A DNA stretch of 64,000 nucleotides from Acidobacteriota bacterium. GTDB lineage: Bacteria; Acidobacteriota; Thermoanaerobaculia; Multivoradales; Multivoraceae. The notes beneath the pieces were generated by a model that worked only from the letters and a program-made list of their open reading frames with translations, ran no database searches and was not told where the DNA came from. The stretch covers positions 22,481 to 86,480 of the forward strand of contig JAPOXA010000165.1 of the NCBI GenBank assembly GCA_026707325.1, given 5' to 3'. Shown one piece after another: positions 7,113 through 59,459 of this stretch (position 1 is the first letter of the stretch; each line of letters starts with the position of its first letter). A program made the position numbers and the translations under genes.

Positions 7113-7297
7113 GGCACGACTTCTCTCGCCTTGTCGATGATGGATTGGGCCTTCTGATGGTTCATGTTTGGAGACTCGAAGCCATGCTTGGCCGCGGTCT
7201 CGTAGAACCTGGTCACTTCATCGGACGTGAACAGATCGAGCAGGTTCTGGGCCAGGTCAGCCAACCGTCGCACGGCGACCCGCTCACGCTTGTTCAC
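7109..7297 (-). CDS. hypothetical protein
   Basis: 62-aa ORF with overlapping stop/start on both sides. Confidence 0.4.
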   Translation of the reverse strand: MNKRERVAVRRLADLAQNLLDLFTSDEVTRFYETAAKHGFESPNMNHQKAQSIIDKAREVVP

Positions 7298-8448
7298 TGA
7301 GACTCCCCATGATTCTCACGCTTCCTCCTGTCGTCGCCCTTCTTCGGGGCCCTCATGATGACGTCGCCGAACGAGGGGGCGAAGGTGCTCGGCCTCTTCG
7401 GTGATGGCGTTGGACTTGATTTTACGGGACGTGGACTGCCGTTGCCAACGCGGCCAAGTTGGCCGGGGACCGCACTGGGCTTCTTCTTCGACTCTGGCTC
7501 CGGCTTGGGTTGGAAGCCCGACACGGCCGTCTTCTCGACGAAGAACGCCTCGCGCAGATGGAGCATCAACTCCTCGATTCCGCGCTCCTGGTGCAGGTCG
7601 TTCGCGTCGCCGCGCTCCGGCGGCATCCACCAGCGGCATCCGGTTCGCTCAGCATAGGAAGCGCCGACCTGATTCGGGTCATGGTCAGCGACCACGAAGT
7701 CGCCGCGTCTGGCGACGTTGAGCAGGTTCGCTGCCGAGAAGGAGACCTTGATCGAGACCTCGTGCTCCATGCGCTTGAGGGCCTCGGCAACGGACAGGGC
7801 TGTCGCGAGACCTTCAACGACCCAGATGCCGCTTCGCGAGCGTCCGTGGGTGTACCGGCCTCCGGTGATGCGGCCGCCTGGGAGGAACCGCTTCTCGCCT
7901 TCGTCGGAGATGGTCTGCGCGGACATGATGTTCAGCTTCCAGTCGCGGATCGGGATGAACAACAGTCCGTCATGAACCAGCCACTTCTGCTCTGGGAAGC
8001 CCTTGTCGGCAAGGTACTGGTGGAGCTTCCACTCGCACTTCTCGATCATCGCCTGGGCGCGTTCCGCCGCGCGGCGGTGACGATCGACCTCTTCCTTCCG
8101 GGCCTCCTTCCTCCGCTTCGCTCGTCGTATGCGTTGCTGCGGAGTCGGAAGCGGGAGATCCCGGCCCCAGACCGTTTCCATGAGTCTGCCGTAGACCGCC
8201 CGTCGCTCGGTGGACGCCAAACCGTCCATGCAACCACGACAACCGACCAGAGTACGGCCATCAAGGTCTCGGACGTGGAAGCGGTCCGTGCCGCCGCATA
8301 GCGGGCAACTGCCGTGCCATTCGCGGCCGGAGCGGACGAGGCCGAGACGCTTCGCCCAGTCCTCTGCCGTGCGATCGAAGTTATACCGAAAGGTTGACAG
8401 CGGAATGCCTACTCGTCGTCGCCCAGTGGCGTGAACGTGACCCGGCAC
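7294..8448 (-). CDS. DNA primase (Zn-finger + Toprim)
   Basis: CPLCGGTDRFHV...GCRGC zinc finger; Toprim-like VVEGLATALSV...VVADHDPNQVG...GDANDL. Confidence 0.8.
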   Translation of the reverse strand: MPGHVHATGRRRVGIPLSTFRYNFDRTAEDWAKRLGLVRSGREWHGSCPLCGGTDRFHVRDLDGRTLVGCRGCMDGLASTERRAVYGRLMETVWGRDLPLPTPQQRIRRAKRRKEARKEEVDRHRRAAERAQAMIEKCEWKLHQYLADKGFPEQKWLVHDGLLFIPIRDWKLNIMSAQTISDEGEKRFLPGGRITGGRYTHGRSRSGIWVVEGLATALSVAEALKRMEHEVSIKVSFSAANLLNVARRGDFVVADHDPNQVGASYAERTGCRWWMPPERGDANDLHQERGIEELMLHLREAFFVEKTAVSGFQPKPEPESKKKPSAVPGQLGRVGNGSPRPVKSSPTPSPKRPSTFAPSFGDVIMRAPKKGDDRRKRENHGESQ

Positions 8449-15180: not shown

Positions 15181-15909
15181 CTAGGCGCCGCCCGCGATGG
15201 ACACGGCGATCGCCACGCTTTCCGCGTCCGCGGCCGCGGCCGCATTTCGGCGGCGCGTGGCCCAGGCTTTCAGCGCGCGGGCCGTTCCCGCCGCGGCCTT
15301 CTCCTCAGGCGTCAGCTCGCGCTTCGGCGGCGGCGGCGTCCAGTCAGGCCCGCGCCGCGTGGCCCAGGCTTTCAGCGCGCGGGCCGTCCCAGCCGCGGCC
15401 TTCTCCTCAGGCGTCAGCTCGCGCTTCGGCGGCGGCGGCGTCCAGTCAGGCCCGCGCCGCGTGGCCCAGGCTTTCAGCGCGCGGGCCGTCCCAGCCGCGG
15501 CCTTCTCCTCAGGCGTCAGCTCGCGCTTCGGCGGCGGCGGCGTCCAGTCAGGCCCGCGGCGAGTCCGCCACGCTTTCAGCGCGCGGGCCGTCCCCTCCAC
15601 GGAGGCCTGGGTGTCGGCCTCCGCCTGGACCGGCTCCGGCTCCGCAGCCGCAGCCCGGTCCAGCGCGTCAGCCAGCGCATCCGTTGCGCGGCGCGTCGGC
15701 TCCGGCTCCGGCTCCGGCTCCGTCTGAGAGCGGACCACGTCGCGGACCGCGTCGTAGAGGCGGCGCCGCTCCACGGCGCCGCCCACCGCGTGGTAGCCCG
15801 TGGTCGTGACGTCGATCCAGCCGACGGGCTCCTCGCCGCACGTCACGACGACGGCCGCACCGTCATCCTCGACCGCGTAGGCAGTGCCGTTGAGCGTGTA
15901 GCTCTTCAT
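15181..15909 (-). CDS. tandem-repeat protein (34-aa KAWATRRGPDW units)
   Basis: Start MKSYTLNG after GGAGAAACGCAATG; 3.5 copies of TARALKAWATRRGPDWTPPPPKRELTPEEKAAAG; paralog of 24345..24980. Confidence 0.6.
   Translation of the reverse strand: MKSYTLNGTAYAVEDDGAAVVVTCGEEPVGWIDVTTTGYHAVGGAVERRRLYDAVRDVVRSQTEPEPEPEPTRRATDALADALDRAAAAEPEPVQAEADTQASVEGTARALKAWRTRRGPDWTPPPPKRELTPEEKAAAGTARALKAWATRRGPDWTPPPPKRELTPEEKAAAGTARALKAWATRRGPDWTPPPPKRELTPEEKAAAGTARALKAWATRRRNAAAAADAESVAIAVSIAGGA
15245..15600. repeat. 102-bp tandem repeat, about 3.5 copies, in-frame
   Basis: Unit starts at 15257, 15359, 15461, 15563. Confidence 0.85.
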
Positions 15910-16081: not shown

Positions 16082-16720
16082 TCACCTGTCTCCGGCGCGG
16101 TGCAGCCGCAGCGCGTCGCGCATCGCGGCGGAAATGCTGGTGCGCGGCTCCGGCACCCACCTCGGTGCGTCAGCGGCCGGAATCGCGCGCCACGTCGTCA
16201 CGTCGACGACCGAGACCTCGAGCACACCGATCACAGCTCCGGACTCCGCCGTGACGTGCAGGAGGTCCGGCCACCTGGAATCGACGTCCAGCTCGAGGAA
16301 CTCGCCATCAATCTCGCGGATGTGCGCCGGCTCGTACCGGGCCGGCTCCGGCGTGGGCTCCGGCGTGGGCTCGGGCTCCGGCTCGGGCTCCGGCTCGGGC
16401 TCCGGCTCGGGCTCCGGCTCGGGCTCCGCCGCATCGCAGCGGTGGCCCGTGTAGGGCTCGCCGCTCCACGGATCCCAGGGCTCGGTGAACTCCGGGTTGC
16501 CCCCCCGTGCGATCCTCACCGCGTCCAGGACCGCCCCGAAGATGCACGTCCGCGAGTGGAGCGGCGGCGACGAACCGTCCAGCGGGACGGCCGCGAACCG
16601 GCGGTTCACCTCTATCGCGGCGATTTCTTCTCCGGACTGGCAGTCAGTCACCGCCAGGAGGTCCGAGTCGGTCGGATCGGCCGCGACGGCGAAAAAGTCG
16701 TTGTCAATGCAGAAGGTCAT
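16082..16720 (-). CDS. hypothetical protein with (PE)n linker
   Basis: Start MTFCIDNDFF after GGAGAAAACGGAATG; central EPEPEP...TPEPTPEP run. Confidence 0.5.
   Translation of the reverse strand: MTFCIDNDFFAVAADPTDSDLLAVTDCQSGEEIAAIEVNRRFAAVPLDGSSPPLHSRTCIFGAVLDAVRIARGGNPEFTEPWDPWSGEPYTGHRCDAAEPEPEPEPEPEPEPEPEPEPTPEPTPEPARYEPAHIREIDGEFLELDVDSRWPDLLHVTAESGAVIGVLEVSVVDVTTWRAIPAADAPRWVPEPRTSISAAMRDALRLHRAGDR
16343..16428. repeat. 12-bp microsatellite (ggctcgggctcc)n encoding (PE)n
   Basis: Read directly; in-frame within 16082..16720. Confidence 0.8.
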
Positions 16721-16765: not shown

Positions 16766-16810
16766 CACCAACGATGAACGGATCGTTGCACAGATCTCAC
16801 AATCCGTCAG
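16766..16810 (-). promoter_or_regulatory. class C promoter with 20-nt palindrome
   Basis: -35 CTGACG, 17 nt, -10 AACGAT; palindrome CAACGATccgttcATCGTTG at 16769-16788. Confidence 0.45.
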
Positions 16811-17121
16811 GCCACCTCTGCCAGCGCGTCCCGACGTCTCCACGTCCGGTCCAGTCTGCGAGTCAGGCGTTCGCAGGCGTCCATCCTCTGCGTTGTCGGC
16901 CGACAGCCGGCCGCAGCGGCCAGCGACCGGGTGGCATCGTCCAGCGCGTCGTCCGCCGCGCGGAGCAACTGCCAGCGCGCGAATGTGACCGCGGTCGCGG
17001 AGTCGACACCCGGCGGCAGCACCAGCCGCTCCGCCGTGCATTCGCGCCCCTCGTCGACCAAGTCCTGGAGCAGGTCCAGGCAGCGGTTCGCGTTGTCCAA
17101 CTTGCGGCTGAAGAAGTTCAT
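16807..17121 (-). CDS. hypothetical protein (paralog of 17323..17613)
   Basis: Start MNFFSRKL after GGGAGAAAACGGAATG; both end in ALAEV. Confidence 0.45.
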   Translation of the reverse strand: MNFFSRKLDNANRCLDLLQDLVDEGRECTAERLVLPPGVDSATAVTFARWQLLRAADDALDDATRSLAAAAGCRPTTQRMDACERLTRRLDRTWRRRDALAEVA

Positions 17122-17322
17122 TCCGTTTTCTCCCTTCGTGAAGTGATTCCTCATTCTCCAGTCTCCTGTCTCACACAGAAGATCCGCGGACAGTCGAGGT
17201 GGTGGTCCGGGTTGACCGGCGTGGCCACCTCGTGGACCAGGACGACAGCTCCCAGCGCGATCGCACCCAGCGACAGCGTGATCACGACGGCGCACAGTCC
17301 GATGACGATCGAATGCCTCACG

Positions 17323-17613
17323 TCAAACCACCTCCGCCAGCGCGGCGTAGCGGCGCCGGCACTCCACGATCGCAGCGACCAGCCGAGCGGGCTCGGCGAC
17401 TCGCCAGACTGCGGGCCACACGTGGGGATCGCGGGCGGCGATCCGCTCCGCGGTGTCCAGGTGGTGATCGATCGTGTCGAGTCTCTGCCAGTTGGGACAC
17501 GTCGTCCGGCGATCCTCCGCGACCAGCCGCTCGAGGATGGTCAGGCACCGGCGCGCCGTGGTCACCGCCCGTGCGGCCTCGGTGTCGGGGGTTGAACGTC
17601 CGATTCGGCTCAT
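17323..17613 (-). CDS. hypothetical protein (paralog of 16807..17121)
   Basis: Start MSRIGRS after GGAGAAAACGGAATG. Confidence 0.45.
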   Translation of the reverse strand: MSRIGRSTPDTEAARAVTTARRCLTILERLVAEDRRTTCPNWQRLDTIDHHLDTAERIAARDPHVWPAVWRVAEPARLVAAIVECRRRYAALAEVV

Positions 17614-17646
17614 TCCGTTTTCTCCTCGCCCCGTCGGGGGCCGCAA

Positions 17647-17689
17647 TCAACGATGAACGGATCGTTGCACAGATCTCACAATCCGTCAA
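17647..17689 (-). promoter_or_regulatory. class C promoter with 20-nt palindrome
   Basis: -35 TTGACG (17684-17689), 17 nt, -10 AACGAT (17661-17666); palindrome 17648-17667. Confidence 0.5.
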
Positions 17690-17699
17690 CCCCCCCCCC
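17690..17699. repeat. C10/G10 homopolymer abutting the -35
   Basis: Ten consecutive C on + strand directly upstream of the TTGACG hexamer. Confidence 0.9.
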
Positions 17700-17724
17700 A
17701 ACAAAAGGGGCCTGGGTAAACCCC

Positions 17725-18003
17725 CGCGGACCACGACCGCGGCCTCCTGGTCGACCGGCGCGGACCACGACCGCGGACCACGACCGCGGACCACGACCGC
17801 GGCCTCCTGGTCGACCGGCGCGGACCACGACCGCGGCCTCCTGGTCGACCGGCGCGGACCACGACCGCGGACCACGACCGCGGACCACGACCGCGGCCTC
17901 CTGGTCGACCGGCGCGGACCACGACCGCGGCCTCCTGGTCGACCGGCGCGGACCACGACCGCGGACCACGACCGCGGACCACGGGACCACGACCGCGGAC
18001 CAC
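17725..18003. repeat. non-coding tandem array of 13-bp (GCGGACCACGACC) and 21-bp (GCGGCCTCCTGGTCGACCGGC) units
   Basis: Order X Y X X X Y gives a 94-bp higher-order period, about 3 copies (17725, 17819, 17913). Confidence 0.9.
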
Positions 18004-18011
18004 GCACGTGA

Positions 18012-18281
18012 CCAATTGAGCTTTCCCTCTTTCCCTTCCTTGACCAATCGAGCTTTCCCCATCCCAGTCCCGGAGCCAATCCCTTCGCCAATCGAGCTTT
18101 CCCCATCCCAGTCCCGGAGCCAATCCCTTCGCCAATCGAGCTTTCCCCATCCCAGTCCCGGAGCCAATCCCTTCGCCAATCGAGCTTTCCCCATCCCAGT
18201 CCCGGAGCCAATCCCTTCGCCAATCGAGCTTTCCCCATCCCAGTCCCGGAGCCAATCCCTTCGCCAATCGAGCTTTCCCTC
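18012..18281. repeat. non-coding 44-bp tandem array, about 5.5 copies
   Basis: Unit ccaatcgagctttccccatcccagtcccggagccaatcccttcg starts at 18044, 18088, 18132, 18176, 18220, 18264. Confidence 0.9.
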
Positions 18282-18395
18282 AGATGCCAAGCGGCCACCC
18301 AGCGGGCCAGCGGACGGTGGACCATGAACCAGCCCTTCGGCCAGTCCCGTGCTTTCCCCCGGAAGCCATTTCCGCTACGGGCAGCAGAGACCAGA

Positions 18396-18617
18396 TCAGA
18401 CTTCCACGACGATCCTCTGGATACGGTCCACGATTTCCATGACCTTGTCGCTGTCGGGGTCGCTGCCAACCATCTCAGCGATGTCGACCGCGGCTTCCAT
18501 CGTTGCCATGACGATGCCTTCCTGAGCATCATCGTTGGTGTGTCCCATCCGTTCCAGGGCCGATTCCGCCAGCAGGCAGATGTTCGTGGCCGGGACGTTC
18601 TTTCGTGTCGTTGCCAT
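18396..18617 (-). CDS. small acidic protein
   Basis: 73-aa ORF behind a class A module. Confidence 0.5.
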   Translation of the reverse strand: MATTRKNVPATNICLLAESALERMGHTNDDAQEGIVMATMEAAVDIAEMVGSDPDSDKVMEIVDRIQRIVVEV

Positions 18618-18648
18618 GTTGCGTTTTCCTTTCGCCCGGTGGGCCTGT

Positions 18649-18692
18649 GTTCAACGTGAGAGAAGTATGGCGGAGTGGATCCCGGCGGTCAA
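18649..18692 (-). promoter_or_regulatory. class A promoter-leader module
   Basis: -35 TTGACC (18687-18692), 17 nt, -10 CATACT (18664-18669), 7 nt, CGTTGAAC (18649-18656). Confidence 0.6.
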
Positions 18693-18786
18693 GCAGCCAC
18701 CCAGCGGGCCAGCGGACCGCGGCGGTGGACCATGAACCAGTTCCGCCGGCTGGCCCGTGGTCTCACTCGTGCTTTCCCTCTTTCCC

Positions 18787-18975
18787 TCAGTCGGCCAGTT
18801 CGACGATCTGGCCCACGGCCATGCCGGGCCGGGCATCCACGATCCGGCGATCGGCTTCGGGATGCAGCTTCTGGCTGATGGCCTTGTAGACACTCGATAT
18901 CCGTGTCCGGCGACCGGATTCGGCTTCGGCTTCGGGATGCAGCTTCTGGCTGATGGCCTTGTAGACATTCGACAT
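18787..18975 (-). CDS. small protein with internal VYKAISQKLHPEA duplication
   Basis: Start MSNVYKA after GGAAGAAAAACGAAATG. Confidence 0.45.
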   Translation of the reverse strand: MSNVYKAISQKLHPEAEAESGRRTRISSVYKAISQKLHPEADRRIVDARPGMAVGQIVELAD

Positions 18976-19005
18976 TTCGTTTTTCTTCCTGCCCGGTGGG
19001 CTGTC

Positions 19006-19049
19006 GTTCAACGTGTTAAGAGTATGGCGGAGTGGATCCCGGCGGTCAA
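19006..19049 (-). promoter_or_regulatory. class A promoter-leader module
   Basis: -35 TTGACC, 17 nt, -10 CATACT, CGTTGAAC box. Confidence 0.6.
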
Positions 19050-19217
19050 GCGGCCACCCAGCGGGGCCAGCGTACCGCGGCGGTGGACCATGGCCGCAGC
19101 CTGTCTACCAATCGAGCCTTCCCGGACCGCGTCGGTGTCGAGCTCACTGGCTGGTTTGTGCTTTCCCCGACAGAATCCCTCACTGTATCGAGCTTTCCCT
19201 GTACGAGGCGAGAGCCC

Positions 19218-19604
19218 TCATTTCGGTTCCCCGTTCAGAGCTTCGGCCCAGGACCGGCGGCTCAGGATGGCTTTCGCTTCGGCGACGTTGATGCTGCGCC
19301 GTTGTGAGTGCTTGACCCGCCTCAATATCTGGGTCGGTTCCGCGCTCAGGTATCCGGAGACTGCATTGATGAACGAGGCCAGCGGCCTGTCCTGCCGCCG
19401 AGAGTTGCATTGGTGGCAGGCCGTAACCAAGTTCGTTTCGTGGTTCCAACCGCCCTTGCTGCGGGGCTTGACGTGATCCAGAGTCAGCCTAGCTTCGTCT
19501 TCCACCGTCGATCCGCAGTAAACGCAGGCCAGACCGTCGCGCATGTAGATCGCCAGTCGTTTCTCCCGGCGAATCCAGTTCATGCCCTGAGTATGTGTCG
19601 TCAT
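19218..19604 (-). CDS. HNH endonuclease
   Basis: CVYCGS...LTLDHVKPRSKGGWNHETNLVTACHQCNSRR. Confidence 0.85.
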   Translation of the reverse strand: MTTHTQGMNWIRREKRLAIYMRDGLACVYCGSTVEDEARLTLDHVKPRSKGGWNHETNLVTACHQCNSRRQDRPLASFINAVSGYLSAEPTQILRRVKHSQRRSINVAEAKAILSRRSWAEALNGEPK

Positions 19605-20117: not shown

Positions 20118-20363
20118 TCATCCTCGGACTCCTTCCCGTTCGCTCGCACTTTCCCTCAGTGACAGGCTGGGCTTCCAGATGCCCGACTCCACGAACCGGT
20201 ATCGCTCCAGCATGTCGATCCGCGCTTGCGCGGCCTCCTCCGTGCCGAAGCGCTCGACCGAGAAGTCGCCGCGCATCTCGTTGCCATCGGCATCGATCAG
20301 GCGCCAGTCGCCGCGATTCGCCGCCTCGGCCTCTTCGATCCGATCGTGGACTCGCGACCTCAC
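20118..20363 (-). CDS. hypothetical protein
   Basis: GTG start overlapping the stop of 20360..20485 (GTGA); charged 81-aa product. Confidence 0.4.
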   Translation of the reverse strand: MRSRVHDRIEEAEAANRGDWRLIDADGNEMRGDFSVERFGTEEAAQARIDMLERYRFVESGIWKPSLSLRESASEREGVRG

Positions 20364-20485
20364 GATGACACCACGCGGAACCGAATGGCCATGCTCAAGC
20401 CCAACCCGTGAGCCTGACGCGCCGTGAAGCAGCGGGCCACCGCGACCCACTTGCCGTTGAGCCATTGCTCGAGAATGAACTTCAT
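20360..20485 (-). CDS. 41-aa micro-ORF
   Basis: ATG placed exactly as in other modules (GAGAGAAACGCAATG); below the track size cut-off. Confidence 0.3.
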   Translation of the reverse strand: MKFILEQWLNGKWVAVARCFTARQAHGLGLSMAIRFRVVSS

Positions 20486-20519
20486 TGCGTTTCTCTCTCC
20501 CTGCCCCGGCGGGGCTGCC

Positions 20520-20563
20520 GTTCAACGTGAGAACAGTATGGCAGAGTGGATCCCGGCGGTCAA
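20520..20563 (-). promoter_or_regulatory. class A promoter-leader module
   Basis: -35 TTGACC, 17 nt, -10 CATACT, CGTTGAAC box. Confidence 0.6.
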
Positions 20564-20639
20564 TGCACCACCCAGCAGGGCCGGAAACCTACCGGTCCGC
20601 ACCAGCCGGCGCGCCAGACACGACAGCTCGCACTTTCCC

Positions 20640-20885
20640 TCAACGATCGGCATCGGGTTCGTCCACCGCGCTCCAGAGACCCACAAGCTGCGCCGGCCGC
20701 ATCTCCCGAAACCGGGCCACGGTGAACTCCACGCACAAGCCGTTGCCCAAACCCTCAAACATGGACAACGACCATCGCGTCAGACCATCCAATCGCACCT
20801 TGTTGAGCTCGCGCTTTCCCTCTGGCAATCGAAGCGCATGCTCGTCCACCGTGCTCCAGCCGCCCACTCGCCGAACTCCCGACAT
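20640..20885 (-). CDS. hypothetical protein
   Basis: ATG overlaps the stop of 20885..21271; stop followed by GGGAAAGTGCGAGC box. Confidence 0.4.
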   Translation of the reverse strand: MSGVRRVGGWSTVDEHALRLPEGKRELNKVRLDGLTRWSLSMFEGLGNGLCVEFTVARFREMRPAQLVGLWSAVDEPDADR

Positions 20886-21271
20886 CAGACGACACCCGGC
20901 GAAAAGTCCACCGCGGCCAAGCACTCCCGCGGACTGCCGAAGGACATCGGCGCCACCGGACCGCGAACCTGTACCCAGCGACCCCAACGAGACTCCTTCA
21001 CGCAGACGATCTCCTCGATCACCCACTCGCCAGGACCAACCTGACGCACACCCAGCGGCCGCGCGAAGACCGGCGACCCGGGTACAACGTCCACGATCGG
21101 ACGACGCTCGATCACCGGCTCATCCTGCCCCCAAGCCGCGTCAGGATGCAAGTCGATCAACCGCTCGATCGCCGCCACGAACGCGGGGTCGCTCACGTTC
21201 ACGGGACCAGGCTCCACAGGAACCTGACCAGCTAGCTGAGCGGCCGACAAGGCCACCGCCAACATCTGCAT
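20885..21271 (-). CDS. hypothetical protein
   Basis: Start MQMLAVAL after AGGAGAAAATGCAATG. Confidence 0.5.
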   Translation of the reverse strand: MQMLAVALSAAQLAGQVPVEPGPVNVSDPAFVAAIERLIDLHPDAAWGQDEPVIERRPIVDVVPGSPVFARPLGVRQVGPGEWVIEEIVCVKESRWGRWVQVRGPVAPMSFGSPRECLAAVDFSPGVV

Positions 21272-21306
21272 TGCATTTTCTCCTGTCTGCCCCCGGCGGG
21301 GCTGCC

Positions 21307-21350
21307 GTTCAACGTGAGAACAGTATGACAGGAGTTGTCCGAAGGGCCAA
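21307..21350 (-). promoter_or_regulatory. class A promoter-leader module
   Basis: -35 TTGGCC, 17 nt, -10 CATACT, CGTTGAAC box. Confidence 0.55.
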
Positions 21351-21368
21351 GGAACCACCCAGCAGGGG

Positions 21369-21809
21369 CTAGCGACGTAACGCCCAGGGATCAACGCCAA
21401 GCCGATTGACGATCCGAGGGTCACCGCGCCTCTCCCAGATCGCCTTTCTCTCGGCCACTCGCCCGAATGGCTCGCTCGAGTGCTCGGACATGACCTCGAC
21501 ACTGAAGCTCGGGCCGAGAGGCTGACTCGCACGATGTCGCTCAAGCCGCTTGCGCAGGTCAACGGTCGACCCGATGTAGTAACTGCCATCGGCCCACTCG
21601 AGCTTGTAGACGACACACGGCTTCGAGTGCTCAGGCCTCGGCTTCTGCGCCGGCCCAGCAGCTTTCGCGGCGGCCGCGGTCGCCAGGACCTCGCCCAAAG
21701 ACACGCTCGACTCAGGAGGATGATCGGCGCTGAACCACGTCACAGCCCGCTCACGCTCGGCTAGCCGACCCACGTCAGCAACGGACAGCGGCCCAATCGT
21801 CGGCTTCAC
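21369..21809 (-). CDS. GIY-YIG nuclease domain protein
   Basis: VYKLEWADGSYYIGSTVDLRKRLERH...E...N core motifs. Confidence 0.8.
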   Translation of the reverse strand: MKPTIGPLSVADVGRLAERERAVTWFSADHPPESSVSLGEVLATAAAAKAAGPAQKPRPEHSKPCVVYKLEWADGSYYIGSTVDLRKRLERHRASQPLGPSFSVEVMSEHSSEPFGRVAERKAIWERRGDPRIVNRLGVDPWALRR

Positions 21810-21815
21810 TTGCCC

Positions 21816-21824
21816 ACTATATCA
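21816..21824 (-). promoter_or_regulatory. extended -10 promoter (TGATATAGT), leaderless GTG start
   Basis: -10 ends 6 nt before the GTG at 21809. Confidence 0.45.
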
Positions 21825-21834
21825 AGCCAGAGTG

Positions 21835-21943
21835 CAGAATCTGAACCGTTCTCGGCGAAACGGTGTGGCCAAAAAGTCTCCTATGGGCCGAGCACCCCAA
21901 GTCGGGAATCTGCACCATTTCCGTCCTGGCGGTTCAGATTCCG
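21835..21943. promoter_or_regulatory. three operator-like GAATCTG(A/C)ACC sites
   Basis: 21835-21847 and 21904-21916 direct, 21930-21943 inverted; first overlaps the -35 region of the GIY-YIG promoter. Confidence 0.45.
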
Positions 21944-22364
21944 TCCATAGCCGTTGGCCTATGCAAGCGGCCAACTTGGCCGGTCGCTGCCCTCGGCGGC
22001 CAACTGGTACCGGACCTCGCTAGTGTGCGAACAGGAGAGAGCGCGCAGGTTGGCTCCCGCGCTTTCCCGTTCGTTCCGGGCCACTTTCCCTTGTCGCAGC
22101 AGGCGTTTTTTCTCGTTGGTCGTTTTGGGTTCGTTGTCGTGTCGTGGTCGTTGCGGGTATTGGGTCGGTATCGGGTTCAGGGGTTTTCGTCGTGTGGTTG
22201 GGTCTTTGTCCCGATCCCGATGGTGGTATGTGTCTGGTTCTTGGGGTGTGTCGAGGGGTGTTTCGCGCTTTCCCTGTAGGTATATGTGTACGGGACCGGA
22301 TCCGAAGGCGCTGGTCGGTGGTGCTTGCCTATGTTCTTGGCCGTTTGTGTGGCTTGGGCTCTTG

Positions 22365-22619
22365 CTAGTGCGAGTCGGTGTCGCAACGCCAGCACATGGG
22401 CCGGTCGTGGGTGATCCGGTAGATGCCGCACTTGGGGCAGTCCTTGGTCTTGGCCGCTTTCAGTGCGTCGGTCGCGGTCGGGTATGGGCCGTCTGTTTGT
22501 GCTGGGCCTGTGCGCCTGTACCAGCCGGCCGGGTATCCGTCTGAGGATCGCGGCAGCTTGAGCACGAGTCCGTTGCGCTTGGCTTCGGCGACTCGCTCGG
22601 CGAGTTCGTTGCGGGTCAT
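22365..22619 (-). CDS. small Zn-ribbon protein
   Basis: 84 aa, CPKCG...CWRC. Confidence 0.5.
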   Translation of the reverse strand: MTRNELAERVAEAKRNGLVLKLPRSSDGYPAGWYRRTGPAQTDGPYPTATDALKAAKTKDCPKCGIYRITHDRPMCWRCDTDSH

Positions 22620-22801
22620 CGCGGCGCCTCGTTGGCGCGCTTGCGGGCTCGTCGGCAGTCGTCGATGTAGGCGCCAACGCCGAGAAGCAAGATGGGTACC
22701 AGGATCGGCAACATGATCAGTCGAATAACACGCCTGACCATCAGTGCCTCCACGTCCGGTTTCGTCGGAACAGCTTGCGGAGTCCCGTCCGTGGAGTCCA
22801 C
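22616..22801 (-). CDS. single-pass membrane protein
   Basis: 61 aa, IRLIMLPILVPILLLGVGAYI span. Confidence 0.4.
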   Translation of the reverse strand: MDSTDGTPQAVPTKPDVEALMVRRVIRLIMLPILVPILLLGVGAYIDDCRRARKRANEAPR

Positions 22802-23082
22802 GGCATGGTCACCCTGCCTTCCGCCATTTCGCGGGCGACTCGGGCGACCTTCTGGAAGGTACGAGAGATCGAGTGCGTAGCCGCGTGGTAGGACTCAAGC
22901 TCTCCTTTGTGAGCCGGATCCCGCCTGATGACGATGACCGGGCCACTCCCGAGGTCTTGGTACAGCTTGCCCATCCGTTCGAGCAGTTCGTGCAGTTCGC
23001 ACTCGGCCTCGATGATCTGGTCCCTGTGAGCACGGATGGCATCGATCTCGGTCGCGATCATCACTGACCTTTTCGTGTTCAC
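22741..23082 (-). CDS. hypothetical protein (tandem paralog of 23157..23438)
   Basis: Shared IIEAECEL...LYQDLG.GP..VIR...SYHAATHSISR.FQKVARVAREMAEG. Confidence 0.5.
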   Translation of the reverse strand: MNTKRSVMIATEIDAIRAHRDQIIEAECELHELLERMGKLYQDLGSGPVIVIRRDPAHKGELESYHAATHSISRTFQKVARVAREMAEGRVTMPWTPRTGLRKLFRRNRTWRH

Positions 23083-23156
23083 TTTTGCGTCTCCTTTGCC
23101 CTCGCGGGCGGTCGTTCAACGTGGTAAGAGTCCGGCTGTGGAGTCCACGGCATGAC

Positions 23157-23438
23157 TCAGCCTTCCGCCATTTCGCGGGCGACTCGGGCGACCTTCTGGA
23201 AGGCGCGAGAGATCGAGTGCGTAGCCGCGTGGTAGGACTGAACCTCTTCTCGGTCAGCCGTCTCCGGCCTGATGACGATGGCCGGGCCATTGCCCAGGTC
23301 TTGGTACAGCTCCCGCATCCGAGAAAGCATGGCGCGCAGTTCACACTCGGCCTCGATGATCCGCAGAGTGCGATCGCCGATCTCCGAGATCTCATGGGCG
23401 GTCTGCGCGTCCAACAGAACGCTCGGCTTCACTGACAT
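23157..23438 (-). CDS. hypothetical protein (tandem paralog of 22741..23082)
   Basis: Start MSVKPSV after AGGAAACGCAAAATG. Confidence 0.5.
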   Translation of the reverse strand: MSVKPSVLLDAQTAHEISEIGDRTLRIIEAECELRAMLSRMRELYQDLGNGPAIVIRPETADREEVQSYHAATHSISRAFQKVARVAREMAEG

Positions 23439-23468
23439 TTTGCGTTTCCTTTGCCCTCGCGGGCGGTC

Positions 23469-23512
23469 GTTCAACGTGGTAAGAGTATGACAGCGTTGGT
23501 CCCGGCGGTCAA
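23469..23512 (-). promoter_or_regulatory. class A promoter-leader module
   Basis: -35 TTGACC, 17 nt, -10 CATACT, CGTTGAAC box. Confidence 0.6.
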
Positions 23513-23597
23513 CGAACCACCCCAGCAGGGCCAGCGGACCGCGGGCGGTGGACCCGCGCCGGAAACCAGCGACAGGCCCTCACTTCGTCTTGGCCAG

Positions 23598-23960
23598 CTA
23601 TTCCCTCTTTCCCGCTACCCGGGCATACTGCCCGATAAGCGATCTCAGACGCTCCAGTGCCCGTGTCTCGTCCTTGATGTGGAACAGTTGTTCCGCGATT
23701 GCCAACGGCAAGCCGAGCAGCAAGGCTGCTTCCTCCTCCCACTCCGGCTCGTCGCTCTCGGCGGGGTTGGCCAGAGCCCACTTCTGCGCCTCGTTGCCGA
23801 ACATGGCGATTGACCAGCCAGCCAGGCATCCTGACGTCCCGCACTCGTGGTGATGAAACCAGGAGCTCATGTCGAAGAAGCGTCCTGACGGGAACGGCTC
23901 GTGCTTGACCGGCAGCGTCGAGCAGAACTCGAGCAGCTGCTCGCAGCGTTCGATGTTCAT
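23598..23960 (-). CDS. hypothetical protein (paralog of 25328..25711)
   Basis: MNIERCEQLLEFCSTLP...CGTSGCLAGW shared signature. Confidence 0.55.
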   Translation of the reverse strand: MNIERCEQLLEFCSTLPVKHEPFPSGRFFDMSSWFHHHECGTSGCLAGWSIAMFGNEAQKWALANPAESDEPEWEEEAALLLGLPLAIAEQLFHIKDETRALERLRSLIGQYARVAGKRE

Positions 23961-24172
23961 ACCGCCTCCGGGTAGATGAAGACGACGCCCGTGAAATCAG
24001 GGCAACCCTCGATCTCTTCTTCCCAATGCAGAGCGGTGATACCGACCCGGCCGCCGAGGAACAACTTAGAGATGCTCCTGAATCCTCTATCTTGGACGGC
24101 ATCCTTCTCGTGCTTCTTGAAGAACTCCTCGGCATCGTCGTGTTGCAGCTTCAGTTGCATGGGCTTGGTCAC
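23957..24172 (-). CDS. hypothetical protein
   Basis: 71-aa ORF behind a class A module; start codon uncertain (GTG 24172 or ATG 24160). Confidence 0.45.
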   Translation of the reverse strand: MTKPMQLKLQHDDAEEFFKKHEKDAVQDRGFRSISKLFLGGRVGITALHWEEEIEGCPDFTGVVFIYPEAV

Positions 24173-24203
24173 CTTTCATTTCCTCTCGGCCGCGTGGCCT
24201 GTC

Positions 24204-24247
24204 GTTCAACGTAAGAACAGTATGGCAGAGGGGGTCGCGGCGGTCAA
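24204..24247 (-). promoter_or_regulatory. class A promoter-leader module
   Basis: -35 TTGACC, 17 nt, -10 CATACT, CGTTGAAC box. Confidence 0.6.
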
Positions 24248-24344
24248 CGCGCTACCCAGGGAAGCCGTGGGCGGTGGTCGAGGGCTCGACCCGTTGGCCA
24301 GCCGTCATCGACTGGCGTCTTGGGTCGAGCCCTCTGGGACCGGG

Positions 24345-24980
24345 CTACGCAGCCTCGGCCTCGGCGGCCTCGGCGGCCGCAGCGGCCGCGTTGGCCTTGC
24401 GGGTCACCCAGGCCTTCTTCGCGCGGGCGCTCGCCGCCGCCGCCTTCTCCTCGGGCGTCAGCTCCGGCTTCGGCGCCGGGGGCACCCAGTCGGGACCGCG
24501 CCGCGTGGCCCATGCCTTATGGGCGCGGGCGCTGGCCGCAGCCGCCTTCTCCTCGGGCGTCAGCTCCGGCTTCGGCTCCGGGGCCACCCAGTCGGGACCG
24601 CGCCGCGTGGCCCATGCCTTATGGGCGCGGGCGCTGGCCGCAGCCGCCTTCTCCTCGGGCGTCAGCTCCGGCTTCGGCTCCGGGGCCACCCAGTCGGGAC
24701 CGCGCCGCGTGGCCCATGCCTTATGGGCGCGGGCGCTGGCCGCAGCCGCGACGTCGGCCGCCTCGGACTCGACGTGCGCGGACAGCGCGTCGCGGGCGGC
24801 GTCGTAGAGCCGCTTCCGCTCGGTCGCGTCCTGAACGTCGGCCGTGTAGCCGCCGTCGGCGTCCGTGATCGAGCCCACGCTGTTGCCGTCGACCGTAACG
24901 TCGTAGCCGCCGGCGTTGGCCTCGAGCACGACGGCGAAGGCGACCTCGCCGATCGTCAGGTTGTAGTTCGTGTTCGACAT
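24345..24980 (-). CDS. tandem-repeat protein (34-aa KAWATRRGPDW units)
   Basis: 3.5 copies of ASARAHKAWATRRGPDWVAPEPKPELTPEEKAAA; same architecture as 15181..15909. Confidence 0.6.
   Translation of the reverse strand: MSNTNYNLTIGEVAFAVVLEANAGGYDVTVDGNSVGSITDADGGYTADVQDATERKRLYDAARDALSAHVESEAADVAAAASARAHKAWATRRGPDWVAPEPKPELTPEEKAAAASARAHKAWATRRGPDWVAPEPKPELTPEEKAAAASARAHKAWATRRGPDWVPPAPKPELTPEEKAAAASARAKKAWVTRKANAAAAAAEAAEAEAA
24400..24750. repeat. 102-bp tandem repeat, about 3.5 copies, in-frame
   Basis: Unit starts at 24403, 24505, 24607, 24709. Confidence 0.85.
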
Positions 24981-25038
24981 TCCGTTTTCCTCCTTGGACC
25001 TTTCGGCCCGGTTTGTGTGTGCGGGGTGACTGCCCCGC

Positions 25039-25083
25039 GTTTCAACGTGACAGAAGTATGGCAGGGTGGATCCCAGCGGTCAA
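25039..25083 (-). promoter_or_regulatory. class A promoter-leader module
   Basis: -35 TTGACC, 17 nt, -10 CATACT, CGTTGAAA box; longer leader. Confidence 0.55.
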
Positions 25084-25331
25084 CTATCCATGCCAAGGCA
25101 ACCAGGAGAGATTGGACCGCGGGCGGTGGACCAGCCCATGACGTCAAGGTCCGCCTCGGACTCATGGATGAAGACGCTGTTATTCACTCGCACGCACTTT
25201 CCCGGAAACCGGATACCGAGCAGGATCGCCAGCGGGCAGTTGTCCTCGTCACAAGCGGTCCCGGACATGATCGCTGCTTCGGTCATCTCGACTTCGACGA
25301 TTCCCGGCAGGTTGTACTTGTCGGACCTCAC
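25080..25331 (-). CDS. hypothetical protein (CPLA family)
   Basis: IVEVEMTEAAIMSGTACDEDNCPLAILLG. Confidence 0.45.
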   Translation of the reverse strand: MRSDKYNLPGIVEVEMTEAAIMSGTACDEDNCPLAILLGIRFPGKCVRVNNSVFIHESEADLDVMGWSTARGPISPGCLGMDS

Positions 25332-25711
25332 GGCATCTCTCCGTGCTCGATCAGGTGGCGCAGCGTTGCCATTGCCTCATCGGTGCCGGTGTATAAGAAC
25401 AACGACCCGGCCGTGTAGTCGTCGAGCCCGAGCAGCCGTTGCGCTACGTGCATGTAGCCTGACTTGTCGTCGCTGTAGAACTCGGCTTCCTCGAAGTCGT
25501 CGTCGTCGCCGAACAGGTTGACGGTCCAGCCGGCCAAGCAGCCGGTCGTCCGGCACATGCCTCGTTGCCACCAGATGTGCTGGTTGAAGGTGTCCTGATG
25601 GCCGCCGCGCTGATTGGCGGCGACCTCAAGATCGATTCCGTCCTCGGGATAGATTCCGTGCGGCAGCGCCGAGCAGTGCTCGTACAACTTCTCGAGTCGT
25701 TCAATGTTCAT
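25328..25711 (-). CDS. hypothetical protein (paralog of 23598..23960)
   Basis: MNIERLEKLYEHCSALP...CRTTGCLAGW. Confidence 0.55.
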   Translation of the reverse strand: MNIERLEKLYEHCSALPHGIYPEDGIDLEVAANQRGGHQDTFNQHIWWQRGMCRTTGCLAGWTVNLFGDDDDFEEAEFYSDDKSGYMHVAQRLLGLDDYTAGSLFLYTGTDEAMATLRHLIEHGEMP

Positions 25712-25716
25712 GGCCA

Positions 25717-25932
25717 TCACGGCCTCCCCTCAACGTGACCGTTGTCGTTCAACACCCAGGATTGGACCGCCATGCCGGCGAACCAGAACATCAGCATGGC
25801 CGCACCGATCATCAGGATGAACCGCCGCGGTTCGGCTCCCTCCTTGATCTCGACCGCGGCGATTGCACAGTGGATAACACCAAGCGCCATGTATGAGCCG
25901 AAGATCAACAGACTAGGCCGGTAGGGCTTCAT
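25717..25932 (-). CDS. membrane protein
   Basis: 71 aa, two hydrophobic spans. Confidence 0.45.
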   Translation of the reverse strand: MKPYRPSLLIFGSYMALGVIHCAIAAVEIKEGAEPRRFILMIGAAMLMFWFAGMAVQSWVLNDNGHVEGRP

Positions 25933-25977
25933 CGGTCGAACCTTTCGGTTTTGTAGACGACCAAGTAGCCGTTGTCG

Positions 25978-26211
25978 CTAGACATCGCAGGCCACCCCCC
26001 AGTCGTCGGGTTGGTCGGAGAGTTCCATCGCGGCCTGGGCTCGCGACGCTGCTTCGGCGTCGTAGGGCCGCTCACGGCTGCACGTCTGGTCCTTGTACCA
26101 GCCACAGCCGAACTTCTGGAAGCGGGCTGAGTTGTGCATGTAGCCGCCCTCCTCCTCGTGGAACTCGTAGGTGTCGATCGGTTCGCCGCAATGCGGGCAG
26201 GGCACGTCCAT
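25978..26211 (-). CDS. Zn-binding small protein
   Basis: MDVPCPHCGEPI... Confidence 0.5.
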   Translation of the reverse strand: MDVPCPHCGEPIDTYEFHEEEGGYMHNSARFQKFGCGWYKDQTCSRERPYDAEAASRAQAAMELSDQPDDWGVACDV

Positions 26212-26262
26212 TTCGTTTCTCCTGTCAGTGGGTTGTAGTGAGATTCTTCATCAAACCGACAT

Positions 26263-30057: not shown

Positions 30058-30368
30058 CAGTCCGCCATCCTTCCCAGCCGGCCAGTCCAAGTTTCGCGTG
30101 TCATCCGACTGACCCTAGCCTCGGCCCGGGCTGTGTCCCGCCGCCACTTCTCAGCCGCAGCCTTGTTCAGCTTCCGGCGCTGTGCCGGCGTGACCCCGGC
30201 CTTGATGTCCCTGATCTTCCACTGCGCATCGGTAAGTTCGTTGCCGACCCGAAGCATCTCGTCGTGAAGTTCTGAGCTGTAGCCGCGCCGACGCCGCTCA
30301 CACAGGTCGTCGTACTGCTTCTTGAGCCTTACGACATGAGCCTCCCACTGAGCCAGTGTTCGTGCCAC
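30057..30368 (-). CDS. hypothetical protein
   Basis: GTG start after GGGGGAAAGAAG; basic coiled-coil-like. Confidence 0.45.
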   Translation of the reverse strand: MARTLAQWEAHVVRLKKQYDDLCERRRRGYSSELHDEMLRVGNELTDAQWKIRDIKAGVTPAQRRKLNKAAAEKWRRDTARAEARVSRMTRETWTGRLGRMAD

Positions 30369-53887: not shown

Positions 53888-53906
53888 GTCTGGGGCATTA
53901 GGGGTT

Positions 53907-59452: not shown

Positions 59453-59459
59453 CTGTTAC

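What the first reader, a model, noticed from the sequence alone, without database searches (positions are those of the whole stretch)
18012..18281. 44-bp tandem array (5.5 copies) whose unit carries the GGGAAAGC box found after many stop codons
The minus-strand unit is GGGGAAAGCTCGATTGGCGAAGGGATTGGCTCCGGGACTGGGAT. It has an internal roughly 12-bp sub-period (GATTGGCGAAGG, GATTGGCTCCGG, GACTGGGATGGG). A 44-bp period is not divisible by 3, so the array is non-coding. It begins right after an orphan copy of the promoter-upstream element (18287-18330) and a TGAGGGAAAGC junction identical to the one that follows several stop codons. It therefore looks like an expansion of a normal intergenic box. 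Together with the 13/21-bp array it fills the 0.6 kb between gene 18396..18617 and the promoter at 17647-17689.
Basis: seen in the sequence. Interest (0 to 1): 0.6.

Follow-up and report, generated by a model that had tools for sequence, protein, structure and literature searches.

The report
Phage intergenic 44-bp tandem repeat
A perfect, roughly five-fold repeat of a 44-base box sits in a gene-free gap of an uncultured 106-kb bacteriophage; it is real and non-coding, but it looks like a young, unstable duplication of one of the phage's own intergenic motifs rather than a new kind of element.

Summary
The array is real. TRF finds it at 18044-18279 with period 44, 5.4 copies and 100% identity, followed by a degenerate tail to about 18012.

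The window lies on a 106.4-kb contig that closes on itself and carries terminase, portal and virion genes, so it is a phage. A CRISPR array in the same genome bin has six spacers against it.

The array is non-coding. ORFs that cross it show no codon-position signal, and no gene was called there in other assemblies.

Its unit is a paralogue of a strand-specific box, GGGAAAG-YNCG(-ATTGG). That box occurs 41 times on the sense strand and 3 times on the other. It sits singly or in pairs just after stop codons of the early micro-gene cassettes and is kept at matching positions in a diverged relative.

Four other assemblies of the same phage (99.5-100% identical flanks) all carry the array. They break, leave N gaps, or collapse to 1.4 copies exactly there, so copy number is unresolved or variable.

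I found no mark of an origin (AT-rich stretch, DnaA box, initiator gene), no RNA family match and no stable fold.

Best reading: a young, slippage-generated minisatellite of an intergenic box, lying in a recombination scar at the end of the early cassette chain. A function as a multi-site binding platform is possible but untested. Interest is low to moderate.

The parts
18044..18279 (-). 44-bp tandem array: 5.4 perfect copies of GGGGAAAGCTCGATTGGCGAAGGGATTGGCTCCGGGACTGGGAT
   Evidence: TRF; sequence; unique in the genome; most G-skewed 236-nt window of the phage on the sense strand, +0.51
18009..18043 (-). Degenerate tail of the array: end of the last partial unit (…GGTCAAGGAA), then GGGAAAGA and GGGAAAGCTCAATTGGTCA
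   Evidence: identical in assembly L027
18280..18282 (-). TGA of the TGAGGGAAAG junction. It looks like a relict stop codon plus box from a lost cassette
   Evidence: TGAGGGAAAG also lies at 20642, 20158 and 18789
18287..18330 (-). Orphan promoter-upstream element. It is homologous to the elements upstream of the promoters at 18692, 19049, 20024 and 23512 but lacks the promoter core
   Evidence: alignment A5
18320..18362 (-). Single-copy post-stop box GGGGGAAAGCACGGGACTGGCCGAAGGGCTGG with a short hairpin, about 40 nt after the stop of the 73-aa gene. It is a paralogue of the array unit
17725..18004 (-). Neighbouring array of 13-bp (GTCGTGGTCCGCG) and 21-bp units with a 94-bp super-period, 2.8 perfect copies
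   Evidence: TRF; a different allele in L027/L029
17690..17699 (-). G10 tract abutting the -35 TTGACG. Its length is the same in all five assemblies
17647..17689 (-). Promoter-like TTGACG with a palindrome (CAACGAT-N6-ATCGTTG) upstream of the 96-aa gene. A second copy lies at about 16766-16808
18396..18617 (-). 73-aa ORFan gene, the last cassette driven by a class-A promoter (TTGACC-N17-CATACT at 18692-18664)
17323..17613 (-). 96-aa ORFan gene downstream of the arrays, predicted to be a three-helix bundle

Best explanation
The array is a non-coding, very young minisatellite (VNTR-type tandem duplication) in the early region of an uncultured ~106-kb tailed phage.

Its 44-nt unit copies one of the phage's own dispersed, strand-specific intergenic boxes, GGGAAAG-YNCG(-ATTGG). 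This purine-rich, Shine-Dalgarno-like motif normally sits singly or in pairs right after stop codons, ahead of the next cassette's terminator/promoter module.

The array lies in a recombination scar. An upstream element has lost its promoter and gene and is fused to a 'TGA-GGGAAAG' gene end. This scar sits at the downstream end of the chain of class-A promoter cassettes.

Inferred mechanism: two 16-nt box copies (GGGAAAGCTCGATTGG) 44 nt apart served as substrate for slipped-strand mispairing or unequal recombination. That produced head-to-tail copies that are still identical and that expand and contract easily.

Any effect is quantitative. The array presents 6-9 copies of a site that elsewhere occurs once or twice. 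It would therefore load more of whatever factor reads that box and separate the last early cassette from the differently controlled 96-aa operon.

Shown: the array is real and perfect, non-coding, homologous to the dispersed box, in this strand and position context, and present in five assemblies. Inferred: the slippage origin, the instability and any barrier or titration effect.
For: The array is perfect and unique to this locus.

The contig is a phage. It has a 498-bp terminal overlap, a terminase large subunit, a portal and a virion protein, and nearly all genes lie on one strand.

The box is strongly strand-biased, 41 versus 3, and lies directly after stop codons. It is kept at orthologous post-stop positions in a relative that is 75-90% identical, L031.

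The unit aligns with single-copy boxes.

Homology of the orphan upstream element ends at the -35.

The class-A promoter series ends at 18692, just upstream.

ORFs crossing the array carry no coding signal.

Assembly L027 shows the 1.4-copy, two-box state. L028 and L033 have N gaps inside the array, and the L029 and L030 contigs end at the array borders. The neighbouring 13/21 array has a truly different allele in L027/L029, including a 14-nt variant unit.

The phage's other tandem repeats follow the same rule as other fast-evolving repeat systems. Genic periods are 24 and 102 (divisible by 3) and intergenic periods are 44 and 13/21/94 (not divisible). Borg elements show the same pattern in PMC9879509.
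Against: True copy-number variation of the 44-bp array is therefore not shown. The 1.4-copy state in L027 may be an assembler collapse: L029 carries the same allele, and its contig breaks at the array.

The position is not obviously random. The array sits at a promoter-class boundary, next to a second array and a G10 tract, and it is the most G-skewed stretch of the phage. That is compatible with a selected function.

The factor that reads the box is unknown.

No diverged relative covering this locus was found, so conservation of the array itself cannot be judged.
Confidence: 0.55

Rival explanations
1. The array is a selected protein-binding platform. With the 13/21-bp array, it would load many copies of a phage or host DNA-binding protein. 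It would act as an operator/enhancer or a roadblock ('stoperator-like' insulator) for the promoter at 17689-17650, at the boundary between early cassettes and the next expression class.
For: The boxes have one orientation and sit after stop codons. Box spacings outside the array are 22, 22, 22, 32 and 44 nt, close to whole helical turns. Both arrays lie directly upstream of a promoter that carries a palindrome. The class-A promoter series ends here. The box is kept in a diverged relative.
Against: No DNA-binding protein is recognisable nearby. The 96-aa product models as a plain three-helix bundle with no significant structural match, the 73-aa model is poor, and there are no Pfam or PHROG hits. 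The box is absent from the promoters themselves. No integrase or repressor was seen in the proteins scanned. Two of the three 22-nt spacings come from one duplicated segment. Perfect copies point to recent origin rather than long maintenance.
Confidence: 0.2
2. The array is an iteron-type origin of phage DNA replication.
For: There are two adjacent arrays of direct repeats in a 0.8-kb gene-free gap. A primase (7294-8448) and a helicase (33707-37117) lie on the same contig.
Against: No AT-rich unwinding stretch adjoins the arrays; the lowest 60-nt GC anywhere in the phage is 0.42-0.48 and none of those stretches abuts them. No DnaA box lies within 7 kb. There is no initiator-like gene next to the arrays and no GC-skew switch. 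The unit is 44 nt rather than the usual 17-22 nt. The array is derived from a box that is scattered over about 10 kb.
Confidence: 0.07
3. The array acts as RNA. Transcribed in the sense direction, it gives a G-rich, unstructured repeat carrying about 24 GGGA / Shine-Dalgarno-like motifs. Such an RNA could titrate ribosomes or an RNA-binding protein, or it could form G-quadruplexes or R-loops that stop transcription.
For: The box is sense-strand specific. GGGAAAG serves as the ribosome-binding site of real genes (ATG at 40788) and of two 13-codon mini-ORFs. The sense RNA is less folded than shuffled controls, z = +2.6, so the motifs would be exposed. There is one G4 motif per unit, with loops up to 12 nt, and the strongest sense-strand G skew of the phage.
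Against: There is no Rfam match. G4Hunter stays below 1.5 in the array. No promoter lies inside or directly upstream of the array, because the orphan element lacks its core. A hairpin follows the 73-aa gene, so the array may be poorly transcribed. No expression data could be consulted.
Confidence: 0.1
4. The copy number, though not the array itself, is an assembly artefact. The true locus would hold a different number of units, or a mixture.
For: Every other assembly fails here, with N gaps in L028 and L033, contig ends in L029 and L030, and 1.4 copies in L027. Coding repeats nearby also differ between assemblies: products of 208 and 174 aa in L027 and L029, against about 243 aa here.
Against: This genome contains a contig with an exact 7.9-kb terminal overlap, and C200 has a 498-bp overlap. 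Short-read assemblers do not produce these, which suggests long accurate reads that would span 236 nt (inference). L028 and L033 each read about 2.3 units into the array from either side, so more than 3 units are present in those samples as well.
Confidence: 0.15

Closest known systems
Perfect tandem direct repeats (TRs) of Borg extrachromosomal elements (PMC9879509)
   Same: Both have perfect head-to-tail copies and flanking partial repeats. Intergenic unit lengths are mostly not divisible by 3 while genic ones are. Unit number varies within populations. The repeats are largely confined to the extrachromosomal element; here this unit is absent from the rest of the bin, although that bin holds other tandem arrays.
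   Different: Borg TRs are A-rich, occur in hundreds per genome and are not described as copies of a dispersed regulatory box. Here the repeat is G-rich, the phage has only two intergenic and three genic arrays, and the unit clearly derives from a dispersed motif.
MIRU-VNTR loci of mycobacteria (own knowledge: 40-100-bp interspersed intergenic units, tandemly repeated at some loci with strain-variable copy number)
   Same: Both have a unit of about 44 nt and intergenic placement between co-oriented genes with one orientation. The same motif occurs dispersed as single copies and tandemly amplified at one locus.
   Different: This is a phage, not a chromosome, and there is no sequence similarity. 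MIRUs overlap stop and start codons and can encode mini-peptides. Variation in copy number is not yet shown here.
PeSL composite terminator/early-promoter cassettes of T4-type phages (PMC2839356, PMC4122927)
   Same: The surroundings match: a chain of tiny ORFan genes, each preceded by a highly conserved hairpin-plus-early-promoter module. Indels between relatives are bounded by the motifs. The orphan element plus TGA-box junction looks like a scar of that kind of recombination.
   Different: PeSLs are not tandem arrays. The promoter sequence here (TTGACC-N17-CATACT-N6-ACGTTGAAC) and the post-stop box are unrelated to those of T4. The phage is not T4-like; its terminase is about 30% identical to those of Gordonia phages.
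Stoperators of Cluster A mycobacteriophages (PMC9283540, PMC6550527)
   Same: Both are short asymmetric motifs, present in many copies, with one orientation relative to transcription, in short intergenic gaps near stop codons.
   Different: Stoperators share their sequence with the operator at the early lytic promoter and are read by an immunity repressor of a temperate phage. Here the box is not in the promoters, no repressor or integrase was found, the sequence is unrelated, and stoperators are not tandemly amplified.
Iteron arrays of plasmid and phage origins (own knowledge: lambda ori, P1 oriR/incA)
   Same: Both are direct repeats in a non-coding gap with spacing near whole helical turns.
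   Different: Here there is no adjacent AT-rich region, initiator gene or DnaA box. The unit is twice the usual length, and the copies are perfect.

Membership tests
VNTR / perfect tandem repeat of a mobile element (MIRU-like, Borg-TR-like) | Head-to-tail copies of one unit in an intergenic region | tested here: met
   TRF gives period 44, 5.4 copies, 100% identity. The array lies in a 782-nt gene-free gap.
VNTR / perfect tandem repeat of a mobile element (MIRU-like, Borg-TR-like) | Related single copies of the unit dispersed elsewhere in the same genome | tested here: met
   Boxes at 19199-19160, 19123-19100, 18358-18329 and 18027 align with the unit.
VNTR / perfect tandem repeat of a mobile element (MIRU-like, Borg-TR-like) | Copy number differs between closely related genomes | tested here: inconclusive
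   This assembly has 5.4 copies and L027 has 1.4. L028 and L033 have gaps, and L029 breaks at the border. The neighbouring 13/21 array does have a distinct allele.
VNTR / perfect tandem repeat of a mobile element (MIRU-like, Borg-TR-like) | Flanking partial repeat; intergenic period not divisible by 3 while genic periods are | tested here: met
   There is a partial last unit plus a degenerate tail. Intergenic periods are 44 and 13/21/94; genic periods are 24 and 102.
Iteron-type replication origin | AT-rich unwinding element next to the repeats | tested here: not met
   No 60-nt window below 0.42 GC exists anywhere in the phage, and none of the lowest windows abuts the arrays.
Iteron-type replication origin | Cognate initiator gene adjacent, or repeats inside it | tested here: not met
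   The flanking genes are ORFans with no Pfam or PHROG family. The primase is 9 kb away and the helicase 16 kb away.
Iteron-type replication origin | Supports replication | not testable with these tools
   This needs an experiment or a read-depth profile.
Stoperator system | Asymmetric motif, many copies, one orientation, near stop codons | tested here: met
   The box occurs 41 times on the sense strand and 3 on the other. Post-stop placement is shown.
Stoperator system | Same motif forms the operator of the early lytic promoter and is read by an immunity repressor of a temperate phage | tested here: not met
   The 17 aligned promoters contain no GGGAAAG box. No integrase or repressor family appeared in the proteins scanned.
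PeSL-type terminator/promoter cassette | Conserved hairpin plus early promoter repeated between small ORFs; indels bounded by the motif | tested here: met
   This holds for the surrounding region, not for the array. There are 17 promoter copies and upstream hairpins in some modules. A ~180-nt duplication relative to L031 is bounded by boxes.
PeSL-type terminator/promoter cassette | The element itself contains a promoter | tested here: not met
   There is no promoter-like site inside the array, and the orphan element lacks its -35/-10.
CRISPR array | Repeats separated by unique spacers | tested here: not met
   The units are contiguous with no spacers.
CsrB/RsmZ-type sponge RNA or any Rfam family | Match to a curated model; GGA motifs presented in hairpin loops | tested here: not met
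   There is no Rfam hit at gathering score or at E<=1 other than a chance snoRNA match. The predicted fold is weaker than shuffled controls.
Protein-coding repeat | Codon-position composition of real genes; frame kept | tested here: not met
   GC1/2/3 is 0.65-0.71 and flat in all ORFs across the arrays, whereas neighbouring genes have GC2 0.38-0.58 and GC3 0.76-0.84. No gene was called there in L027, L028 or L032.

The most novel reading that the evidence does not exclude
The 44-bp array and the adjoining 13/21-bp array would together form a dedicated cis-acting platform at the early/middle boundary of this phage. It would be either an array of orientation-specific transcription roadblocks or the phage's replication origin. 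It would be built by amplifying the phage's own post-stop box and promoter-upstream motif, with copy number tuned by slippage.
Probability: 0.2. Interest if true: 0.55.

Novelty: new member of a known kind. Interest (0 to 1): 0.3.

Why it matters
In itself it matters little. Perfect intergenic tandem repeats that expand from a short direct repeat are a known class, and nothing here shows a new mechanism.

It is useful in three ways. First, it marks where short-read assemblies of this phage fail, so copy numbers at this locus in public MAGs should not be trusted. Second, it shows a dispersed regulatory-looking box caught in the act of amplification inside a PeSL-like cassette region of a high-GC phage, outside the T4 group where such cassettes were described. 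Third, the box itself may be the better target for follow-up: it is strand-specific, sits after stop codons, resembles a Shine-Dalgarno sequence and is kept in a diverged relative. The array is a natural multi-copy version of it for binding or reporter tests.

Tried and rejected
- **Relatives by DNA:** blastn of 17000-19500 against the phage and plasmid collections found nothing. In 40 related genomes only weak matches to the GC-rich 13/21 repeats appeared.
- **Relatives by flanking proteins:** there were no relatives in viral contigs. Among 5.8 billion proteins, only identical copies were found.
- **Promoter-pattern scans** of the viral, metagenome and genome collections returned 0 hits, although the pattern works on local loci. 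A 16-mer of the unit in viral contigs gave only single, chance-level hits.
- **Protein scans of public collections:** the primase in genome contigs and the conserved 128-aa protein in metagenome contigs found nothing.
- **Only diverged relative:** L031 (6.6 kb) ends about 2 kb short of the array locus.
- **Rfam:** no match. **tRNAs:** none.
- **RNA folding:** the array folds worse than shuffled controls on both strands. Folds of the upstream elements are inconsistent between copies.
- **Origin marks:** none were found.
- **G-quadruplex:** only a weak motif is present.
- **Neighbouring proteins:** the 96-aa protein models as a generic three-helix bundle with no significant PDB match, and the 73-aa model has low confidence. 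The two supposedly paralogous small proteins show no BLASTP similarity as I delimited them.
- **Withdrawn observations:** I first read 10-12-nt palindromes in the 13/21 units. A direct search shows only CCGCGG and GGTCGACC, so I withdrew this. The 13-nt GGTCC spacing is shared with only one upstream element.
- **CRISPR spacer clustering next to the arrays:** only 2 of 6 good matches lie nearby, so this is not a hotspot.

Full report
**1. The observation**

Tandem Repeats Finder reports 18044..18279 with period 44, 5.4 copies, 100% matches and no indels. On the minus strand the array is preceded by TGA (18282-18280). It is followed by a partial unit and a degenerate tail: GGGGAAAGCTCGATTGGTCAAGGAA-GGGAAAGA-GGGAAAGCTCAATTGGTCA, down to about 18009. 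The 12-nt sub-period is visible by eye. The unit occurs nowhere else in the 5.1-Mb genome. Directly downstream lies the second array, 17725-18004, made of 13- and 21-nt units with a perfect 94-nt super-period.

**2. Where it is**

The window is C200:22481-86480 of a 209-contig, 68% GC genome. C200 is 106,915 bp and 63% GC, and its two ends overlap exactly by 498 bp. It encodes a terminase large subunit, a portal and a virion protein. It also encodes a primase, a helicase, RusA, a YqaJ-like exonuclease, a DUF5131 protein with a LAGLIDADG insert, HNH and GIY-YIG endonucleases, three TnpB copies and a 2350-aa fibre-like protein. Almost all of these lie on the minus strand. It is therefore a complete or near-complete phage genome of about 106.4 kb, not host chromosome.

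Its terminase is only about 30% identical to the best database phages, which infect Gordonia.

A CRISPR array on contig C181 of the same bin has a 37-nt repeat and 38 spacers. Six spacers match the phage with at most one mismatch. This links phage and host.

**3. The surroundings**

Seventeen promoter-like sites on the minus strand share a remarkably fixed pattern: TTGACC or TGGACA, 17 nt, CATACT or a close variant, then in most of them NNNNN-CACGTTGAAC, a short hairpin and a purine-rich ribosome-binding site. The TTGACC class runs from 30487 to 18692, each copy ahead of a tiny ORFan gene. The 73-aa gene just upstream of the array is the last of the series.

Downstream of the arrays the next promoter-like site is TTGACG at 17689. 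It carries a palindrome that recurs at about 16780. The arrays therefore sit at a boundary between two promoter classes.

A subset of the class-A promoters is preceded by a GC-rich element, GGTCCACCGCC(C)GCGGTCCGCTGGCCC(C)GCTGGG(G)TGG. The copy at 18330-18287 aligns with these up to the TTG of the -35. It then continues into TCTGAGGGAAAGCTCG instead of a promoter. This is a junction between an upstream element and something that looks like a gene end.

**4. The box**

GGGAAAG occurs 41 times on the sense (minus) strand of the phage and 3 times on the other. That is 0.41 per kb against 0.08 per kb in the rest of the bin. GGGAAAGC occurs 20 times in the window against 2.3 expected.

Outside the array the boxes lie just after stop codons: 27368/27346, 27096/27074, 20639, 20155, 19199/19167/19123, 18786/18778 and 18358. 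They are often paired at 22 nt, and the consensus is GGGAAAG-YNCG.

TGAGGGAAAG, the stop codon fused to the box, occurs four times, one of them at the head of the array.

In L031, a 6.6-kb metagenome contig 75-90% identical to the window over 20233-26227, the same promoter module is present. The boxes are kept at orthologous post-stop positions while the flanks diverge. The box as such therefore appears to be under constraint.

The motif also serves as the ribosome-binding site of a real gene (ATG at 40788) and of two paralogous 13-codon mini-ORFs. It is Shine-Dalgarno-like.

**5. The unit is a copy of that box**

The unit GGGAAAGCTCGATTGGCGAAGGGATTGGCTCCGGGA aligns with three single-copy boxes:
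- GGGAAAGCTCGATACAGTGAGGGATTCTGTCGGGGA after the HNH gene
- GGGAAGGCTCGATTGG at 19123
- GGGGGAAAGCACGGGACTGGCCGAAGGGCTGG after the 73-aa gene

**6. Not coding and not a known RNA**

All six frames are open across both arrays, so the '44 is not divisible by 3' argument does not settle the matter. However, ORFs crossing the arrays have flat GC1/GC2/GC3 of 0.65-0.71, while neighbouring genes show GC2 0.38-0.58 and GC3 0.76-0.84. Gene callers on three other assemblies called nothing there.

Rfam gives nothing. The sense RNA folds worse than shuffled controls, z = +2.6, and the antisense RNA has z = +4.6.

The sense strand of the array is 45% G. It is the most G-skewed 236-nt window of the phage, +0.51 against a mean of 0.05 and sd of 0.08. 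Each unit contains one loose G4 motif, but G4Hunter stays below 1.5.

**7. Other assemblies of the same phage**

Exact-protein look-ups found the locus in four other assemblies. Flanks are 99.5-100% identical.

| Locus | Source | State at the arrays |
|---|---|---|
| L027 | NCBI GCA_034428695.1 | 1.4 units; a different 13/21 array (X X Y X Y X X X X' X, where X' has an extra T) |
| L029 | MEGAHIT-style k141 contig | same 13/21 allele as L027; contig ends exactly at the border between the two arrays |
| L028/L032 | ERZ23500222 | 2.3 units, then 100 N |
| L033 | ERZ23497053 | N gap, then 2.4 units; truncated 13/21 array |
| L030 | ERZ23497053 | starts right after the 13/21 array |

The array is therefore reproducibly present, and its copy number is either variable or simply not resolvable from short reads. 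L027's 1.4 copies may be a collapse. The 13/21 allele difference cannot be a collapse.

This genome bin contains a contig with an exact 7.9-kb terminal overlap. That suggests long accurate reads and makes 5.4 units credible here, but this is an inference.

The 1.4-copy state is itself informative. Two GGGAAAGCTCGATTGG copies 44 nt apart are the classical substrate for slipped-strand or unequal-exchange expansion.

**8. Tests of functional readings**

*Origin.* I found no AT-rich stretch beside the arrays, no DnaA box within 7 kb, no skew switch and no initiator-like neighbour.

*Binding platform.* Orientation, position and near-helical spacings of 22, 32 and 44 nt are compatible with this reading. 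However, no DNA-binding protein could be recognised nearby. The 96-aa product models as a three-helix bundle (pLDDT 82) without any significant PDB match, and the 73-aa model is poor.

*RNA sponge or G4.* This is possible only if the array is transcribed. The orphan element lacks a promoter, no promoter-like site lies in the array, and a hairpin follows the 73-aa gene.

**9. Comparison with known systems**

The closest match is the class of perfect, fast-evolving tandem repeats of extrachromosomal elements. Borg TRs are the example: intergenic units mostly not divisible by 3, flanking partial repeats and variable number (PMC9879509). MIRU-type VNTRs are also close (own knowledge).

The surrounding cassette architecture works like the PeSL terminator/promoter cassettes of T4-type phages (PMC2839356, PMC4122927). 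The junction at the head of the array looks like a scar of that kind of recombination.

The dispersed box resembles stoperators in orientation and placement (PMC9283540). It fails the defining link to a promoter operator and an immunity repressor.

**10. Verdict**

'Non-coding' and 'expansion of an intergenic box' are supported. 'Origin' or 'binding site' is not supported but is not excluded either.

The most likely reading (about 0.55) is a young, unstable minisatellite of a cis-acting box in a recombination scar, with at most a quantitative effect. It is a new member of a known kind, and interest is about 0.3.

Noticed in passing
genome contig C181:13134-15958 (outside the window); protospacers at window 17074-17109, 16451-16486, 30240-30277, 62838-62873, 64755-64789 and C200:105139-105174: A CRISPR array in the same bin has the 37-nt repeat CTGTCGCCGGGGTTCACCCCCCGGCCTTCGTTGAGCG and 38 spacers. 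Six spacers match this phage with 0-1 mismatch, which links host and phage.
   Followed up: partly
whole contig C200 (window = C200:22481-86480): The contig closes on itself with a 498-bp exact terminal overlap, giving a unit length of 106,417 bp. It is a complete-looking phage genome with nearly all genes on one strand. Its best terminase relatives are only about 30% identical.
   Followed up: yes
window 15181-15909 and 24345-24980 (minus): Two paralogous proteins carry 3.4 copies of a 34-aa repeat, ARALKAWATRRGPDW...PEEKAAA. The KAWATRRGPDW core gives a weak match to the MvaT DNA-binding domain. The product is about 243 aa here, 208 aa in L027 and 174 aa in L029. A relative with 80% identity exists in L031.
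   Followed up: partly
window 27356-27315 and 27084-27043 (minus): Two paralogous 13-codon mini-ORFs (MTNGESARACDRA and MANRESARACDCA) start 5 nt after a GGGGGAAAG box that directly follows a stop codon. Their length is kept despite four substitutions.
   Followed up: no
window 17690-17699: The G10 tract abutting the -35 TTGACG has the same length in all five assemblies, so no length variation is seen.
   Followed up: yes
window 30487-18692 (minus), also 60676, 51050, 19681: A highly fixed promoter module is repeated about 17 times: TTGACC or TGGACA, N17, CATACT or a variant, then CACGTTGAAC in most copies. It is conserved in the diverged contig L031 but absent from three public collections scanned by pattern.
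   Followed up: partly
window 20640-20820: About 180 nt are present here but absent from L031. The segment is a duplication of a gene end plus box (GGTGGACGA...GAGGGAAAG[CT]GCGAGC). This suggests that the boxes bound rearrangements.
   Followed up: no
window 42968-44176, 52648-53976, 58213-59586 (minus): The phage carries three TnpB/Cas12f-like OrfB genes that are 90-92% identical over about 1.25 kb.
   Followed up: no
window 46495-48186 (minus) and L009:17317-19881 (minus): The DUF5131 protein carries a LAGLIDADG domain insert, which looks intein-like. The 854-aa terminase matches its families in two separated blocks, so it may also hold an insert.
   Followed up: no
window ~15125-15085 and ~15029-14680 (minus): A clean intrinsic terminator (GGAGGAGGCAACG...CGTTGCCTCCTCTTTT) is followed by a G/T-rich gene of odd composition with Cys-rich motifs. 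It is the second most G-skewed stretch of the phage.
   Followed up: no
genome contig C150 (34,438 bp): The contig has an exact 7,933-bp terminal overlap. It is either a circular element assembled from long reads or an element with long terminal repeats.
   Followed up: no
window 22095-22360 (minus): This is the most C-over-G skewed stretch of the phage on the sense strand (-0.39), inside a 555-nt gene-free gap that also holds three GGGAAAG boxes.
   Followed up: no
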